Notes: generated by a model from the sequence alone, not told the origin. 64,000 bases of DNA from a virus (IMGVR_UViG_3300019742_000001), one strand, 5' to 3'; counted from the stretch's first letter, positions 35,337-43,914 are shown. Program-made: numbers and translations.

Positions 35337-35408
35337 TGGTATCGGTAGAAGGAATTGAACCTTCCATCTGTCCGTATGAAGGACGGATTCGTAACCATAC
35401 ATACCGAT
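35337..35408 (-). tRNA. tRNA with probable CAT anticodon (ambiguous), reduced D arm
   Basis: Acceptor ATCGGTA/TACCGAT, T arm and CCA; anticodon arm can fold as TT CAT AC or as CC TTC AT. Confidence 0.55.
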
Positions 35409-35415
35409 ACAAAAG

Positions 35416-35486
35416 TGGAAGCGGAGGAAGGAATCGAACCTTCAAGTAAGTGGTTATGAGCCACCACGATACCCTGAATCCCCGCA
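35416..35486 (-). tRNA. tRNA-Met(CAT), initiator-like
   Basis: CT CAT AA loop, 1:72 mismatch, CCA end, short D arm. Confidence 0.75.
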
Positions 35487-36842: not shown

Positions 36843-37660
36843 GGGTGGGTCTGAGATTACGACCCACCTTTGTTAGAACTTTCGTTAGATTATCCGTAGG
36901 GGGCAACCCTTTGGTTCCTAACTTATCCACACATCATTCCAATGTGTATTCCAACGTGACTACCTTTTTTAAAGAGTGGTTTTTCTCTTGTCCTGTAAGT
37001 CTATTCAATACTTTGTCTACCCTAGTGAGTAATTAATTCCCTAAGTGCGACTCCCTATCAACACTCTCCAACTTGCGGTCTTTGAGTGCCCCAATTCACA
37101 ATACATGTTGGGGATTAAGCCACTTTCAACTTACAGCGGGGCCAACTTTGCGTTTACAATATTGGAATTGAACCAATAAATGTCAGATTAGAATTCTGAT
37201 TGACAACCTTTGTCAGATTGAACTATCCATGATGTGTGACCCCTGTGGATTCATAACCTTGCGATTACAAAATACCACACACCATATATCTTTCCCTTTT
37301 GTATCGGTACTCAATGGTTTTTCAAGATTTTGTCTGCCTCCTCACAAAGACACCCAATACCTATCAAACTACGAACCGCCCTTGACACTACTCTCAGACT
37401 ATGTTCATTATCCCTTATCTTTCATAAATGGAATGTTTGGTATGTAGTATTTCGGTACCACCCGAAACTCGTTTAGACCAGTGTTACCCACCTAAACTTT
37501 TTCCTACACATCCGTCATTACTTATGTCCACCTACTACAGTGAACACCCTTTACGGGAAGATGAGACTTGTTTGGTTATCCATTCGAAAATGGCGGGGAA
37601 GTGATAGAACTTACCCCTTTCGTTACGTTTCCGTAATTTATTTGTTGACACCAAACTGCC
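36843..37660 (-). ncRNA. GOLLD-like large noncoding RNA (boundaries approximate)
   Basis: ~800 nt with no credible ORF, dense hairpins, own promoter; 3' part GTGGATAAG..GGAA..ATAATC..AAAG..GTAATCTCAG resembles GOLLD as I recall it. Confidence 0.6.
37152..37223 (-). pseudogene. degenerate tRNA-like element nested in the large ncRNA (anticodon register TCT)
   Basis: D stem TGACAA/TTGTCA, anticodon stem TCAGA/TCTGA, T arm ATTGG-TTCAATT-CCAAT; weak acceptor stem, no CCA. Confidence 0.55.
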
Positions 37661-37664
37661 AATT

Positions 37665-37731
37665 TTATATTTTCAAAGATCGTTCTGTTTCAATGTTTGT
37701 CTACTATAACAACTTGTTCTGTCTTTGTAAA
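37665..37731 (-). promoter_or_regulatory. sigma70 promoter plus boxA-like site
   Basis: TTTACA-N17-TATAGT (37703-37731), then GATCTTTGAAAA (37665-37681). Confidence 0.6.
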
Positions 37732-38016: not shown

Positions 38017-38304
38017 TTATTTTTTGTCAATAACTAAATTCATTTCTGTAACATATTTTCTTAAAATAACATAAGTTCCAAACTTATGTGTAATATTATA
38101 CTTTTCACTATCCCTTGTCAAGAACCAACTATAAATTTTATAAAGTTCTCTGTAATCGGTGTTTGTCAACTGTCTAACCGACAAATTACTTTCACGGTTG
38201 AATCTAATCGTCAAAACCCAAATATCTGGCAGTTTAGGTCTTGGTGTCTTTGGAAGTGTACCATTAATCGTAAAAAACTTGTATACCCATTCCTTCATAC
38301 TCAC
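38017..38304 (-). CDS. hypothetical protein
   Basis: 95 aa ORF. Confidence 0.5.
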   Translation of the reverse strand: MSMKEWVYKFFTINGTLPKTPRPKLPDIWVLTIRFNRESNLSVRQLTNTDYRELYKIYSWFLTRDSEKYNITHKFGTYVILRKYVTEMNLVIDKK

Positions 38305-38316
38305 ACCTTTCGTTTA

Positions 38317-38541
38317 TTAACACTGGAAATAAATGTCATCAACGATTTCAATATCCGTTAACGATTCCAACTCTTCAATTGCTGATGTCTGTGTAAGACT
38401 CTTTAAGTGTATTTGTGGATAACACCATCCAGTTTTTACATTCTGGAAAGATTTGGTCACATCCTTTAACATAAAATAGTAACCTTCATTGTCAATACTC
38501 TTTAATAATATACCTTTTCCAAGTAGTGTTTCATTATCCAT
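38317..38541 (-). CDS. hypothetical protein
   Basis: 74 aa ORF. Confidence 0.5.
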   Translation of the reverse strand: MDNETLLGKGILLKSIDNEGYYFMLKDVTKSFQNVKTGWCYPQIHLKSLTQTSAIEELESLTDIEIVDDIYFQC

Positions 38542-38683: not shown

Positions 38684-38839
38684 TTACCTACCTTGACCAC
38701 GATATCGTTTGACACCACGTTTCTTATTCCGTTTTTTCTTTTCTGGTCGTGAACATTTACCACCGCCAATCGTGGTCACCATCTTTCTACCATTAATCGA
38801 TTTGTCGTTTGCTGTTGTTCCTCTGATTTTCTTAGCCAT
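38684..38839 (-). CDS. small basic phage protein ending KRYRGQGR (51 aa, not in ORF track)
   Basis: Translated by hand: MAKKIRGTT...KRNKKRGVKRYRGQGR*. Confidence 0.65.
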   Translation of the reverse strand: MAKKIRGTTANDKSINGRKMVTTIGGGKCSRPEKKKRNKKRGVKRYRGQGR

Positions 38840-38916
38840 TTCGTTTCCTTCTGTTAGTGGTTAATTTCAATAATAATAACACTCTGTTTCAATAATGTAA
38901 ACTATCTTTTTAAAAA

Positions 38917-39578: not shown

Positions 39579-39655
39579 TGGTGTCCCCGATAGGATTCGA
39601 ACCTATGACTAATAGCTTAGAAGGCTACTGCTCTATTCCGCTGAGCTACGGAGAC
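39579..39655 (-). tRNA. tRNA-Arg(TCT)
   Basis: Canonical cloverleaf, CCA end. Confidence 0.93.
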
Positions 39656-39663
39656 ATGTAACT

Positions 39664-39768
39664 TGTAATATCACTTTAACGAATGCTTCACCATATTTGC
39701 CCCACCGACAGTCAAGCCGAGGAGGGAATCGAACCCTCTTTCTTTCGTCTTGCAAAAGTGATATTACA
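39664..39768 (-). ncRNA. YrlA-like Y RNA (permuted tRNA mimic)
   Basis: 14-bp terminal stem, GACGAAAG (GNCGAANG) motif, then T arm, loop-closed acceptor-like stem and D-like loop. Confidence 0.7.
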
Positions 39769-39774
39769 TAAATT

Positions 39775-39850
39775 TGGTCAGGAGTATCGGGTACGATCCG
39801 ATATACACAGAGTCACAATCTATGCGATTAACCATTTATCTTAACTCCTG
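39775..39850 (-). tRNA. tRNA-His(GTG)
   Basis: TT GTG AC loop; A73 and genomic T at -1. Confidence 0.85.
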
Positions 39851-39860
39851 ATGATTTGTA

Positions 39861-39948
39861 ATACTCAGTGAGGGAATTGAACCCTCATCTCTCCGTCGAG
39901 GTAGTGATCTAATCCGTCTAGGGATATCCGTTTGATCTAACTGAGTAT
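39861..39948 (-). pseudogene. tRNA-like element with non-canonical anticodon region
   Basis: Acceptor ACTCAGT/ACTGAGT and intact T arm; no 7-nt anticodon loop, no CCA. Confidence 0.5.
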
Positions 39949-40204: not shown

Positions 40205-40282
40205 TGGTAGCCCGTGAGGGTGTTGAACCCTCCCTTTACACCGTTTGAAGATGCTCCCTCTGCCAACGTGGGGTAACGAGCC
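40205..40282 (-). tRNA. tRNA-Leu(CAA), short variable arm
   Basis: TT CAA AC, CCA end. Confidence 0.85.
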
Positions 40283-40413
40283 ATAACTTTCTGTCTCAAT
40301 GTTTTTACATAGTAACCTATCATATAAACATTGTCAACTAATTACTTACTGAGGTTGGAGTCAAACCAACATTTGTCTAAAAGGTCTTGCTCAATCGCAT
40401 CCTACAGTAAAAA

Positions 40414-40552
40414 GGAGGGTAGGATGAGTATCGACCTCATCTTCCTTGGTCCCCACTCTCAACGGTACCGTCTCCAAGTGGTTTCTTTTGTTTACACGGT
40501 TCACATCTAAGGTTTCTGTGGTACCACTTTCACCGTTGATGTCCGACTACCC
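40414..40552 (-). ncRNA. tRNA-like RNA with long branched insert in place of the anticodon arm
   Basis: GGGTAG/CTACCC acceptor, GATGAG-GTCGATA-CTCATC T-like arm, TCAACGGT/ACCGTTGA and AAGTGGT/ACCACTT stems. Confidence 0.45.
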
Positions 40553-40673: not shown

Positions 40674-41231
40674 CTATGTAATTTTTAACTTCTTTCGTAT
40701 CATAGTCTCAGATACACCAATTATCTCAGCAATTCTTGAGTTAGTCAAAGTTTTTTTCATTTCAACTAAGTCAAACTTTGACCAATCAACTTTACCTCTA
40801 AGTGATCCAGCACATTTCTTTGAACATGTTGTATATGTTTTTGGTTTTTCTTTACCACAAACAGGACAATACGTTACTTCTGTTTGTATGTAAATCACAA
40901 AATCTTCATCAAAAGTATTATGTGTCTCTGGTAATTCTGTTATACCACTATGAACTTCTTTGTGACAATTTGAACATAAAAGAATACATTTCCTTAGTTC
41001 TTTAACTATATTGTCCCACGATTTTGGATTAGCCATTACATTACCAAATGACAATTCCTTTTCTTCTGGATCAATGTGATGTAATTCTAATGCGTTGTTA
41101 CACTTATCATAACTACATATTTGACAACAACCACCCATTGATTCAACTATTCGTGATTTTGTAGAACTTCTCCACTTTTTTACTGCGTCTGATTGTTTAC
41201 TCACAACAAACCTCCAATTTGATATTAACAA
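40674..41231 (-). CDS. free-standing HNH homing endonuclease
   Basis: CQIC...LELHHIDP.EK...ELRKCILLCSNCHKEVH; TATAAATA at 41245-41252. Confidence 0.85.
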   Translation of the reverse strand: MLISNWRFVVSKQSDAVKKWRSSTKSRIVESMGGCCQICSYDKCNNALELHHIDPEEKELSFGNVMANPKSWDNIVKELRKCILLCSNCHKEVHSGITELPETHNTFDEDFVIYIQTEVTYCPVCGKEKPKTYTTCSKKCAGSLRGKVDWSKFDLVEMKKTLTNSRIAEIIGVSETMIRKKLKIT

Positions 41232-41504: not shown

Positions 41505-41583
41505 TGGAGCGGATATGGTGAATCGAACACCTTGCGATGGGTTGGAAACCCACTGTCACACCATGTAACTGAGCGATACCCGC
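41505..41583 (-). tRNA. tRNA-Gly(TCC)
   Basis: GTGGG TT TCC AA CCCAT arm, U73, CCA end. Confidence 0.85.
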
Positions 41584-41596
41584 ATTTCTTACTAAA

Positions 41597-41674
41597 TGGT
41601 AGCCCGTGAGGGTGTTGAACCCTCCCTTTACAGTTTCTAAAACTGCTCCCTCTGCCAACGTGGGGTAACGAGCC
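41597..41674 (-). tRNA. tRNA-Leu(TAG), short variable arm
   Basis: TT TAG AA; identical to Leu(CAA) outside the anticodon arm. Confidence 0.85.
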
Positions 41675-41985: not shown

Positions 41986-42396
41986 CTATTTATTTTTTTC
42001 CATGTAGTGTATTTCTGAGTGACAATTCTTACACAAAACAACACACTTGTCAATTTCAATTATTATCTTTTCCTTGTTCATACCATCCGCCACCATTTTA
42101 CTAACACCCTTTACCTTTTTAGTAGGATCTAAATGATGAAAGTCTAAACAATAGTATCTATCTTCCCCACAATTAGAACATTTCAGGGTTTTCTTGTAAT
42201 CAGCAAACCATAAAGATAACTTTTTTTGTGATCTCCTACTACTTTCAACATACTTCTCTTTATTATCTTCGTAGTGTTTCTTAGTTGATATTGCTTGACA
42301 TACCTTACAATAATACTGATACCCATCATTCTTCGACTTATTCTTGTTGAACTCAGACAAAGATTTTTCTTGTTTACACCTACTACACACCTTCAT
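41986..42396 (-). CDS. free-standing HNH homing endonuclease
   Basis: CSRC...F.KNK..DG....CK.C; CSNCGE...LDFHHLDP..K...KCVVLCKNCH; TATAAATA at 42415-42422. Confidence 0.88.
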   Translation of the reverse strand: MKVCSRCKQEKSLSEFNKNKSKNDGYQYYCKVCQAISTKKHYEDNKEKYVESSRRSQKKLSLWFADYKKTLKCSNCGEDRYYCLDFHHLDPTKKVKGVSKMVADGMNKEKIIIEIDKCVVLCKNCHSEIHYMEKNK

Positions 42397-42974: not shown

Positions 42975-43309
42975 ATTTTCTTTAATTTAGTGGAACAAGG
43001 AGTGTATGCCCTGATTTACTATCCACGTCCTGTGTGGATATCCACTAAAAGGTTTGGTAACCGCACCGTATCCCTTAGACTTGTCGAGGTAGTCGCCGTG
43101 ATTGGTTACCCGTAAATTCTGGTTAATCGGGATTCCATTTCCATCAGCGACCAAGCCAATTTACTACGGTATCCTTTTCACCACGGTCACATAACAATCA
43201 ACTGGTTAGGAATATGCCTCTGTGACCTAAACTTGTCACGGTTTTCGCCTCTCAGGACGGGTCTACATCAAATTAATGATCACCGTGAACCCTCTTTCTT
43301 TCGTATTAA

Positions 43310-43842: not shown

Positions 43843-43914
43843 TGGAGGGTATGGAGGGAATTGAACCCTCGTTCATCGTTTTGCAGACGATACACCGAAC
43901 CATCGAACATACCC
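43843..43914 (-). tRNA. tRNA-Cys(GCA)
   Basis: CT GCA AA, U73, CCA end. Confidence 0.9.

What the first reader, a model, noticed from the sequence alone, without database searches (positions are those of the whole stretch)
39664..39768. YrlA-like Y RNA (or circularly permuted tRNA-Cys) hidden among the tRNAs
Minus strand: TGTAATATCACTTT-TGCAAG-ACGAA-AGAAA-GAGGG TTCGATT CCCTC-CTCGGC TTGACT GTCGG-TGGGGC AAATATGGTGAA GC-A-TTCGT-T-AAAGTGATATTACA. The order is T arm, then loop-closed acceptor stem, then D loop, with the anticodon stem extended into a 14-bp terminal helix and a GACGAAAG motif. These are the defining features of bacterial YrlA Y RNAs, which bind Ro60/Rsr. No Ro60 gene is in this window, so it may act as a decoy or partner for host Ro60, or as bait for tRNA nucleases. 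Alternative reading: joining the halves at 32/33 would give a TT GCA AG Cys loop.
Basis: partly seen in the sequence, partly recalled or inferred. Interest (0 to 1): 0.75.

Follow-up and report, generated by a model that had tools for sequence, protein, structure and literature searches.

The report
Inside-out tRNA mimic in phage
A 105-base gene in the tRNA cluster of a T4-like phage encodes an RNA built like a tRNA turned inside out, with the acceptor end sealed and the anticodon end clamped by a 14-bp helix; it shares its design with bacterial YrlA Y RNAs and a large uncatalogued phage RNA family, but it fails the YrlA test, carries a mutated family tag and has no Ro60-like partner gene in sight, so it is a divergent or decaying variant of a known design.

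Summary
Window 39664-39768 (minus strand) has a perfect 14-bp terminal helix, a 6-nt bulge (UGCAAG), a perfect 5-bp stem, a canonical T arm, a 5-bp hairpin and a D-like loop. It fills a tRNA slot, 6 nt after tRNA-His and 8 nt before tRNA-Arg.

It is not a YrlA family member:
- The Rfam model gives no hit on the element.
- The GACGAAAG string lies in the wrong place.
- No TROVE gene was found in 136 kb of the 239-kb phage contig.

Re-joining the halves makes ARAGORN call tRNA-Cys(GCA) at its default threshold, so a tRNA-Cys origin is plausible. U8, the D stem and a 7-bp acceptor stem are missing.

The best match in design is an uncatalogued phage family that this scan has met before on other DNA: clamp helix, ACAGCAA tag and permuted tRNA body. 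I confirmed its fold by covariation and its link to DUF2828 (Ro60-like) genes.

My element aligns in that frame (29.6 bits, E=0.003). However:
- Its tag is UUUGCAA.
- It scores below all 143 family hits.
- It has no DUF2828 gene in the 136 kb examined.
- It has no homolog, even in the closest relative.

Verdict: a genuine permuted tRNA mimic. Whether it functions is unresolved.

The parts
39664..39768 (-). Whole element (105 nt): circularly permuted, acceptor-closed tRNA-like RNA on a clamp helix
39755..39768 (-). 5' strand of the perfect 14-bp clamp helix (UGUAAUAUCACUUU)
   Evidence: pair probability 0.95-1.0, except 0.54 for the outermost pair
39664..39677 (-). 3' strand of the clamp helix (AAAGUGAUAUUACA)
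39749..39754 (-). Bulge UGCAAG. Together with U39678 it reads as a 7-nt tRNA-Cys anticodon loop (UU-GCA-AG). It also occupies the position of the ACAGCAA tag of the phage handle family, and GCAA is shared
39744..39748 (-). ACGAA, the 3' strand of the anticodon-like stem. It is part of the GACGAAAG string and of a 21-nt repeat also found at 43287-43307
39679..39683 (-). UUCGU, the 5' strand of the anticodon-like stem
39722..39738 (-). Canonical T arm GAGGG-UUCGAUU-CCCUC
39705..39720 (-). Acceptor-like hairpin UCGGC-UUGACU-GUCGG (5 bp, weak in the ensemble). It has the same stem sequence as the Felix O1 mimic (CUCGGC/GUCGAG)
39684..39704 (-). D-like region UGGGGCAAAUAUGGUGAAGCA (GG present; GC/GC stem plus A.A mismatches; G instead of U8). 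It resembles the Felix-type D arm GGUGUAAUGGUAGCA
39775..39850 (-). Upstream neighbour tRNA-His(GTG). Its CCA ends 6 nt before the element
39579..39655 (-). Downstream neighbour tRNA-Arg(TCT). It starts 8 nt after the element
43843..43914 (-). Resident tRNA-Cys(GCA). It is the best match of the re-joined element among 294 phage tRNAs, with the same UCGU/ACGA anticodon stem core and a T arm differing at 1 nt
43287..43307 (-). Second copy (20 of 21 nt) of AA-N-ACGAAAGAAAGAGGGUUC, at the start of the 335-nt tRNA-Pro to tRNA-Asp spacer

Best explanation
The element is a small non-coding RNA gene of the phage tRNA operon that folds as a circularly permuted tRNA mimic.

Shown:
- A perfect 14-bp clamp and a 5-bp stem enclose a canonical T arm, a short closed acceptor-like hairpin and a D-like loop.
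- It sits in a tRNA slot.
- It has no free acceptor end and no anticodon loop, so it cannot be charged as it stands.

Inferred:
- It is cut out of the polycistronic transcript by the enzymes that trim the flanking tRNAs (RNase P at tRNA-Arg, 3' trimming of tRNA-His).
- The clamp protects its ends.
- By design, and probably by descent, it belongs with the phage 'clamp + ACAGCAA tag + permuted tRNA body' RNAs that accompany DUF2828 (Ro60-like) genes. This is the same construction as bacterial YrlA.
- It is a deviant of that group: tag UUUGCAA, weakened D and acceptor parts, no partner gene found. Its anticodon-side sequence looks borrowed from tRNA-Cys.

If it is functional, it most likely acts as a tRNA-elbow-bearing protein-binding RNA. 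That could be a Y-RNA-like scaffold, or a decoy for a tRNA-recognising factor. It would not act in decoding.
For: Structure:
- The structure is beyond chance.
- Clamp, stem and T arm have pair probabilities above 0.9.
- It occupies a tRNA slot with 6- and 8-nt spacers, and there is no terminator between the neighbours.

The family:
- Its fold is verified here by covariation: 92.5% of cells paired and 18 of 21 pairs compensatory, and no shuffle of 500 reached the observed pairing or covariation score.
- DUF2828 is present in 4 of 5 family records and in Felix O1.
- The family is absent from Rfam at gathering thresholds.

Fit of the element to the family:
- MAFFT places the element in the family frame, with GCAA, the T loop and the D-loop GG in the invariant columns.
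- The family CM, built without the element, aligns it full length at 29.6 bits, E=0.003.
- My single-sequence CM hits the Felix O1 mimic core at 14.1 bits, E=0.064, with the identical acceptor-hairpin stem CUCGGC/GUCG.

tRNA-Cys link: ARAGORN calls the re-joined sequence tRNA-Cys at its default threshold, against 25 of 552 chimeric controls.
Against: - No homolog was found in about 1 Mb of related loci, in the closest relative's 164-kb record, in GenBank phages or by IMG/VR pattern scans. There is therefore no covariation for this element itself.
- Three metagenome runs carry it without a single variant.
- The tag differs at 3 of 7 positions, while 115 of 143 family hits have the exact ACAGCAA and most variants change only position 1 or 7.
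- Its 29.6 bits lie below every one of the 143 family hits (33-100 bits) and below two tRNA-tRNA junctions in the same window (42 and 39 bits).
- The acceptor hairpin and D stem are disfavoured thermodynamically.
- No DUF2828 or TROVE gene was found in 136 kb of the contig or in five related records.
- There are no expression data.
Confidence: 0.45

Rival explanations
1. Decaying relic. The element is the remnant of a handle-type Y-like RNA, or of a tandemly duplicated tRNA-Cys, that lost its partner gene and is drifting. It may still be transcribed with the tRNAs, but it does nothing.
For: - The tag is mutated at three otherwise nearly invariant positions.
- The D stem is reduced to 2 bp, U8 is lost and the acceptor hairpin is out of register.
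- Its score lies below all family members.
- It is absent from the closest relative, whose array has the same flanks (GOLLD, ThyX).
- No partner gene was found in 136 kb.
- The array is littered with tRNA debris: a 21-nt copy of its own 5' part at 43287-43307, and several sub-threshold tRNA-like genes.
Against: The 14-bp clamp, the 5-bp stem and the T arm are all perfect (24 base pairs without one mismatch or G.U), while only the other half looks worn. Drift should not spare them. The element also keeps exact tRNA-like spacing to both neighbours.
Confidence: 0.3
2. Independent origin. The element is a permuted tRNA-Cys derivative made within this phage by tandem duplication and deletion. It is unrelated to the ACAGCAA family, and its resemblance to that family and to YrlA is convergent.
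For: - ARAGORN calls the re-joined sequence tRNA-Cys(GCA) at its default threshold.
- The best match among 294 tRNAs is the window's own tRNA-Cys, with the identical UCGU/ACGA stem core, a T arm differing at 1 nt and U at the discriminator position.
- The bulge plus the opposite U makes exactly a 7-nt loop with U33, GCA and A37.
Against: - GCAA at this position is equally expected for the handle family.
- The acceptor hairpin stem matches Felix O1, not the resident tRNA-Cys.
- The 5' half has no clear tRNA parent.
- Duplication and deletion alone do not explain a flanking perfect 14-bp helix.
Confidence: 0.12
3. True YrlA-type Y RNA that binds a TROVE Ro60 (the host's, or one encoded in the unread part of the phage).
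For: - The topology and module sizes are as in Salmonella YrlA.
- The string GACGAAAG fits GNCGAAN0-1G.
- The phage encodes RtcB and RlaP, genes that accompany Ro/Y systems elsewhere.
Against: - The RF02553 model gives no hit on the element.
- The nearly invariant YrlA D arm GUAGCUCA..GGUAGAGC is absent.
- The motif lies at the wrong place.
- No TROVE gene was found in 136 kb or in five related records.
Confidence: 0.05
4. Working permuted tRNA-Cys gene. The clamp is cut off, the phage RtcB joins U(32) to U(33), and the acceptor loop is opened by RNase P and finished with CCA.
For: - ARAGORN calls the re-joined sequence.
- The phage has RtcB.
- M. smegmatis YrlA is opened by RNase P and receives CCA (PMC4201824).
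Against: - The acceptor stem has 5 bp rather than 7. G replaces U8. The D stem has 2 bp.
- An intact tRNA-Cys is already present.
- No bacterial endonuclease is known to remove such a helix (own knowledge).
- RtcB lies about 59 kb away.
Confidence: 0.04
5. Chance junction of two unrelated tRNA remnants, or a small transposable element with 14-bp terminal inverted repeats.
For: - tRNA-tRNA junctions mimic the order T arm, acceptor, D arm and score high with the family models.
- The ends are inverted repeats.
Against: - The two halves pair with each other in two stems, whereas only 4.5% of chimeric halves pass ARAGORN.
- There is no second copy of the repeat arms in the window or in 72 kb of flanks.
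- There is no target duplication.
Confidence: 0.04

Closest known systems
YrlA (Y RNA-like A; Rfam RF02553; Chen et al. 2014, PMC4201824; Wang et al. 2018, 10.1101/312249)
   Same: It is a circularly permuted tRNA mimic: T arm, loop-closed acceptor stem, D region, and an anticodon stem continued into a stem formed by the 5' and 3' ends. The total size and module positions are similar. The GNCGAAN0-1G string is present.
   Different: - There is no CM hit.
- The invariant D arm and U8 are missing.
- The motif lies next to the T arm, not in the distal stem.
- It is not next to a TROVE gene; it lies inside a tRNA array.
Phage 'clamp + ACAGCAA tag + permuted tRNA' RNAs beside DUF2828 (Ro60-like) genes. 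Examples are Felix O1 downstream of ORF42, and Bas63 gp130, which the PhageMaP preprint (PMC11482910) reports to counter the ppl defence and speculates has Y RNA partners among the tRNAs. The family is not in Rfam.
   Same: - It lies inside a phage tRNA array.
- A clamp helix is followed directly by a short unpaired tag containing GCAA.
- It has the order T arm, closed acceptor hairpin, D region.
- Its acceptor-hairpin stem equals that of Felix O1.
- Its D region is of the Felix type (..UGGU..GCA).
- It is about as long as the compact members (86-115 nt).
   Different: - The tag is UUUGCAA(G), not ACAGCAA.
- The extra perfect 5-bp stem abuts the tag.
- The 14-bp clamp is at the long end of the family's 7-14 bp range.
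- It is a single copy rather than an array of units.
- No DUF2828 gene was found in 136 kb.
- Its model score lies below all members.
Permuted tRNA genes of the red alga Cyanidioschyzon merolae (Soma et al. 2007; from my own knowledge, not checked here)
   Same: The 3' half precedes the 5' half. The termini pair in a helix next to the anticodon loop. The acceptor strands are joined by a short linker.
   Different: Those genes form a bulge-helix-bulge cut by the eukaryal/archaeal splicing endonuclease and give working tRNAs. Here there is no such motif and no such enzyme, and the tRNA body is defective.
T4 rnaC and rnaD (species 1 and 2 RNAs) in the T4 tRNA cluster
   Same: They are small stable RNAs of unknown function, encoded among the tRNAs of a T4-type phage and processed with them. 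rnaC carries a T arm.
   Different: rnaC keeps normal tRNA polarity (acceptor ends free, T arm near the 3' end) and is not permuted. There is no sequence or model similarity.

Membership tests
YrlA (RF02553) | Reaches the Rfam covariance model's gathering score (69 bits) | tested here: not met
   No hit at E<=10 on the element alone. The model gives 14.2 bits only by pairing the element's T arm with the D arm of tRNA-Arg. Positive control: a mycobacteriophage YrlA scores 28.8 bits.
YrlA (RF02553) | Nearly invariant T and D stem-loops (D: GUAGCUCA..GGUAGAGC) | tested here: not met
   The T arm is canonical. The D region is GGGGCAAAUAUGGUGAAGCA, with a 2-bp stem and G in place of U8.
YrlA (RF02553) | Closed acceptor-like hairpin between T and D; 5' and 3' ends paired in a long stem | tested here: met
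   A 5-bp hairpin at 39705-39720, which is weak in the ensemble, and a perfect 14-bp terminal helix.
YrlA (RF02553) | GNCGAAN0-1G motif in the 5' strand of the Ro60-binding (distal) stem | tested here: not met
   The string GACGAAAG is present, but at positions 20-27, 3 nt before the T arm. In the control phage YrlA, GGUCGAAG lies about 40 nt upstream of the T arm. The distal 5' strand here is UGUAAUAUCACUUU.
YrlA (RF02553) | Encoded next to a Ro60/TROVE (PF05731) gene | tested here: not met
   None was found among the window's ORFs, in contig positions 99.4-235.1 kb or in five related records. The remaining 104 kb of the contig and the host genome were not seen.
Phage ACAGCAA-handle permuted tRNA mimics (uncatalogued) | Clamp helix of the two ends enclosing T arm, closed acceptor hairpin and D arm, in that order | tested here: met
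   The element aligns in the family frame. The family CM aligns it full length. The family fold was verified by covariation.
Phage ACAGCAA-handle permuted tRNA mimics (uncatalogued) | Tag ACAGCAA 0-3 nt after the 5' clamp strand | tested here: not met
   The element has UUUGCAA(G), so only GCAA is kept. Of 143 family hits, 115 have the exact tag and most variants differ only at position 1 or 7.
Phage ACAGCAA-handle permuted tRNA mimics (uncatalogued) | Model score within the range of members | tested here: inconclusive
   The element scores 29.6 bits, E=0.003 in the window. Members score 33-100 bits. tRNA-tRNA junctions reach 39-42 bits, so the model does not separate the family from junctions.
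Phage ACAGCAA-handle permuted tRNA mimics (uncatalogued) | DUF2828 (PF11443) gene nearby | tested here: not met
   DUF2828 is present in 4 of 5 family records and in Felix O1. It is absent from the window, from 136 kb of the contig and from five related records.
Functional tRNA-Cys (as a permuted gene) | Cloverleaf with GCA anticodon, U73, 7-bp acceptor stem, U8, 3-4-bp D stem | tested here: inconclusive
   ARAGORN calls the re-joined sequence tRNA-Cys at its default threshold, and U follows the acceptor strand. But the acceptor stem has 5 bp plus mismatches, G replaces U8, and the D stem is 2 bp.
Functional tRNA-Cys (as a permuted gene) | Processing to a re-ligated, CCA-ended molecule | not testable with these tools
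   No RNA run holds the stretch.

The most novel reading that the evidence does not exclude
The element is a working, Ro60-independent permuted tRNA mimic that cooperates with the phage's own RNA-repair genes (RtcB, RlaP, phosphoesterases, 59-72 kb away). Two versions are possible. It could be a decoy or sensor for host nucleases that cut tRNA. Or it could be a genuine permuted tRNA-Cys gene whose halves are re-joined by RtcB, which would be the first permuted tRNA gene in a virus of bacteria.
Probability: 0.07. Interest if true: 0.85.

Novelty: new variant of a known kind. Interest (0 to 1): 0.5.

Why it matters
Phage tRNA arrays are now seen as counter-defence islands against tRNA-cutting immunity. 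Ro60-like phage proteins have just been linked to defence evasion (PMC11482910). This element shows that the 'inside-out tRNA on a clamp' design also occurs without the usual tag and without a Ro60-like gene, in a T4-like mat phage that does carry RtcB and RlaP.

If it is functional, the tRNA-shaped body may have a job that does not need Ro60. If it is a relic, it records the loss of such a module and shows how these RNAs decay.

It is also a practical warning. tRNA finders and Rfam miss these genes, and covariance models of them are confounded by ordinary tRNA-tRNA junctions.

Tried and rejected
- Rfam at gathering and at E-value thresholds: only T-arm fragments, plus a chance-level RAGATH-28 match (14 bits, E about 1). 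No paper mentions RAGATH-28.
- Exact and degenerate DNA patterns of the element in IMG/VR:
  - The two patterns taken from the element's own T arm and acceptor hairpin found nothing.
  - The looser patterns brought only ordinary tRNAs, mostly tRNA-Leu, Felix O1-type mimics and one coding-sequence match.
- blastn against GenBank phages: only the neighbouring tRNAs hit.
- Single-sequence CM R1 over 43 + 28 related loci and two whole related records: no hit.
- ThyX-anchored relatives from IMG/VR and the metagenomes: the closest lineage (84% ThyX identity, same GOLLD and array flanks) lacks the element.
- Sequencing runs: no RNA holder was listed. The DNA contigs of three microbial-mat runs are identical, so there are no variants.
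- MITE idea: there is no second copy of the repeat arms.
- Sequence-only HMM of the family: it is dominated by tRNA junctions.
- An ACGA/UCGU stem as a family trait: only 1 of 136 units has it.
- CAGCAA-tagged RNAs in this array: the two minus-strand CAGCAA sites lie in small ORFs.
- The 527-aa and 478-aa orphan proteins as hidden Ro60-like genes: rejected. One is beta-helix-like and the other DHH-like, and the 478-aa protein has no similarity to Felix O1 ORF42.
- The whole contig could not be searched. The record is not held, and walking covered 136 of 239 kb.

Full report
THE PLACE. The window is part of a T4-like myovirus. It encodes gp32, RNase H, a clamp loader, a UvsX/RecA-like protein, ribonucleotide reductase, an NAD-dependent ligase and ThyX. 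The source is a microbial-mat metagenome. The same DNA lies in a 239,309-bp ENA contig, and the window covers about 122.2-186.2 kb of it. Between 35.3 and 45 kb the minus strand carries 24 tRNA genes found by ARAGORN, a GOLLD RNA, two HNH endonuclease genes and several tRNA-like stretches that the finders miss.

THE OBSERVATION. Positions 1-14 pair perfectly with 92-105. This is the only perfect inverted repeat of 14 bp or more with a long interior in the window, and its arms occur nowhere else beyond chance. Then come:
- a 6-nt bulge, UGCAAG;
- a perfect 5-bp stem, ACGAA/UUCGU;
- AGAAA;
- a canonical T arm, GAGGG-UUCGAUU-CCCUC;
- a 5-bp hairpin, UCGGC-UUGACU-GUCGG;
- a 21-nt D-like stretch with GG.

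The fold is more stable than shuffles (z = -3.6). In the ensemble the clamp, the 5-bp stem and the T arm are firm (above 0.9). The acceptor-like hairpin and the 2-bp D stem are not (about 0.02), and the MFE prefers one irregular hairpin there. By comparison, 20 of the 24 real tRNAs fold as cloverleaves. The element starts 6 nt after the CCA of tRNA-His and ends 8 nt before tRNA-Arg. No terminator-like site lies between them, and promoter-like sites lie upstream on the same strand. That it is made and trimmed with the tRNAs is an inference.

IS IT YrlA? The design is the same. Chen et al. (PMC4201824) and Wang et al. (10.1101/312249) describe YrlA as T arm, closed acceptor stem and D arm, with the anticodon stem running into the stem of the two ends. 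The module positions in Salmonella YrlA nearly coincide with those here. Membership fails, for these reasons:
- The Rfam model finds nothing on the element alone. It gives 14 bits only by borrowing the D arm of tRNA-Arg.
- As a control, a mycobacteriophage YrlA just upstream of its TROVE gene scores 28.8 bits, although that is itself below Rfam's 69-bit gathering score. It shows the invariant D arm GUAGCUCAA..GGUAGAGC and the motif GGUCGAAG about 40 nt upstream of the T arm.
- Here the D arm is not conserved and U8 is G.
- GACGAAAG is simply the anticodon-stem strand, 3 nt before the T arm.
- No TROVE gene is in the window, in the 136 kb of the contig that I could read, or in five related phage records.

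IS IT A PERMUTED tRNA-Cys? Joining G60..U91 to U15..U59 gives a sequence that ARAGORN calls tRNA-Cys(GCA) at its default threshold. Only 25 of 552 chimeras made from halves of different tRNAs of this array pass. The best match among 294 phage tRNAs is the window's own tRNA-Cys. The two share the same UCGU/ACGA stem core, differ at one T-arm position, and both have U after the acceptor strand. So a tRNA-Cys contribution is plausible. As a tRNA, however, the product would have a 5-bp acceptor stem, G8 and a 2-bp D stem. An intact tRNA-Cys is already present. I know of no bacterial enzyme that would remove the clamp. The phage does encode RtcB, but 59 kb away.

A LEAD FROM EARLIER NOTES OF THIS SCAN, TESTED HERE. 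Earlier reports describe phage RNAs made of a clamp helix, an invariant ACAGCAA tag and tRNA parts, beside DUF2828 (Ro60-like) genes. I checked this myself:
- Felix O1 ORF42 matches DUF2828. Downstream of it, in the tRNA array, lie units such as ..AGACCG-UUU-ACAGCAA..T arm-ACUCGGC-AGGU-GUCGAGU-UGGUGUAAUGGUAGCAC..CGGUCU.
These held 109 orphan T arms enclosed by a clamp next to the tag.
- On 16 diverse units, 92.5% of cells pair and 18 of 21 pairs show compensatory changes. No shuffle of 500 reached the observed pairing or covariation score, and slid controls reach at most 43%.
- Four of five records tested carry DUF2828.
- Rfam reports only tRNAs in these loci.
- The one paper I found is the PhageMaP preprint. 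It reports that the Ro60-like gp130 of Bas63 counters the ppl defence, and it guesses that some 'tRNAs' nearby are Y RNAs (PMC11482910).

WHERE MY ELEMENT STANDS. MAFFT puts it in the family frame. GCAA, the T loop and the D-loop GG fall in the invariant columns, and the clamp falls on the clamp. The acceptor hairpin has the same stem as in Felix O1, and the D region is of the Felix type. The family model, built without the element, aligns it full length at 29.6 bits, E = 0.003.

Against membership:
- The tag is UUUGCAA. 115 of 143 family hits have ACAGCAA, and most variants touch only the first or last letter.
- All 143 hits score 33-100 bits.
- Two tRNA-tRNA junctions of my window score 42 and 39 bits, so the model does not discriminate.
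- No DUF2828 gene and no second such RNA were found in 136 kb.
- The closest relative, with the same GOLLD, ThyX and array flanks, has no counterpart.

GCAA is explained equally by the family tag and by a Cys anticodon with A37. The match to the resident tRNA-Cys stem favours the tRNA-Cys origin. The Felix-like hairpin favours the family. I cannot separate these origins, and they may both hold.

FUNCTION. None is shown. I commit to a tRNA-elbow-bearing, end-protected small RNA that binds a protein, as a Y-RNA-like scaffold or decoy (0.45). A decaying relic is the main rival (0.30). For function: 24 flawless base pairs in the clamp, stem and T arm, and exact tRNA-slot spacing. For decay: the mutated tag, the worn D and acceptor parts, the missing partner, the absence from the relative, and a 21-nt copy of the element's own 5' part at 43287-43307 in an array full of tRNA debris.

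Outside the window the phage has an RNA-repair island with RtcB, RlaP, two metallophosphoesterases and DHH proteins. That keeps a repair-linked role open.

NOVELTY. The design is known (YrlA), and the phage family has been met repeatedly in this scan on other DNA. This copy is a variant without the tag and without the partner gene.

Noticed in passing
window 36847-37285 (-), extending to about 37679: GOLLD RNA (Rfam 183.7 bits) with an embedded tRNA-like T arm at 37161-37177. An 861-nt stretch (36848-37679) is 75% identical to the closest relative, so the full GOLLD is conserved beside the array.
   Followed up: partly
window 35337-35408 and 35416-35486 (-): Two tRNA-like genes just downstream of thyX, ending in CCA. 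ARAGORN calls them tRNA-Met(CAT) only at 85% of its threshold. One has a 9-bp acceptor stem. They overlap a probably spurious 125-aa ORF.
   Followed up: partly
window 39861-39948 (-): tRNA-like RNA with an 8-9-bp acceptor stem and a canonical T arm, but no normal anticodon arm. ARAGORN calls it 'tRNA-???' at a lowered threshold. It shares the 11-mer ACUACCUCGAC with the Pro-Asp spacer RNA.
   Followed up: partly
window 40414-40552 and 40347-40410 (-): In the 278-nt Ala to Leu(caa) spacer lies an RNA with tRNA-like ends (acceptor plus a T-like arm GAUGAG-GUCGAUA-CUCAUC) and a branched insert of about 90 nt. It recalls T4 rnaC, which also keeps an acceptor and a T arm. A second small hairpin RNA follows.
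   Followed up: partly
window 41505-41583 (-): Sub-threshold tRNA-like gene with a 4-bp T stem and loop UUUCCAA. ARAGORN calls it Gly(TCC) at 85% of its threshold. No tRNA-Trp was found in the array.
   Followed up: partly
window 42975-43309 (-): 335-nt non-coding spacer between tRNA-Pro and tRNA-Asp with no Rfam hit. It starts with a 21-nt copy (20 of 21 nt) of the element's ACGAAAGAAAGAGGGUUC segment. It contains a 43-nt island (43062-43104) that is 95% identical to the relative, just upstream of that phage's tRNA-Glu. It is a candidate new structured RNA.
   Followed up: partly
window 38690-38840 (-) and 38017-38540 (-): Small ORFs inside the array. One encodes a very basic peptide of about 50 aa (MAKKIRGTTANDKS..), and the two CAGCAA sites of the array lie in these ORFs.
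   Followed up: no
window 40205-40282 and 41597-41674 (-): tRNA-Leu(CAA) and tRNA-Leu(TAG) are 92% identical duplicates that differ mainly in the anticodon arm. This is recent duplication with an anticodon switch. Two HNH endonuclease genes (40674-41231, 41986-42396) lie in the same array.
   Followed up: no
L309 10449-11741; L311 11816-16474 (ENA contig about 205.8-221 kb, outside the window): The same phage encodes RtcB (430 aa). About 10 kb further on it encodes a metallophosphoesterase, an RlaP-type nucleotidyltransferase and DHH phosphoesterases. NAD-salvage genes (NAPRTase, NAD synthase, Nudix) lie next to RtcB. Together these form an RNA-repair and NAD island.
   Followed up: partly
Subtypes with UCAGCAA or GCAGCAA tags exist, as do units without a tRNA body. 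None is found by Rfam 15.
   Followed up: partly
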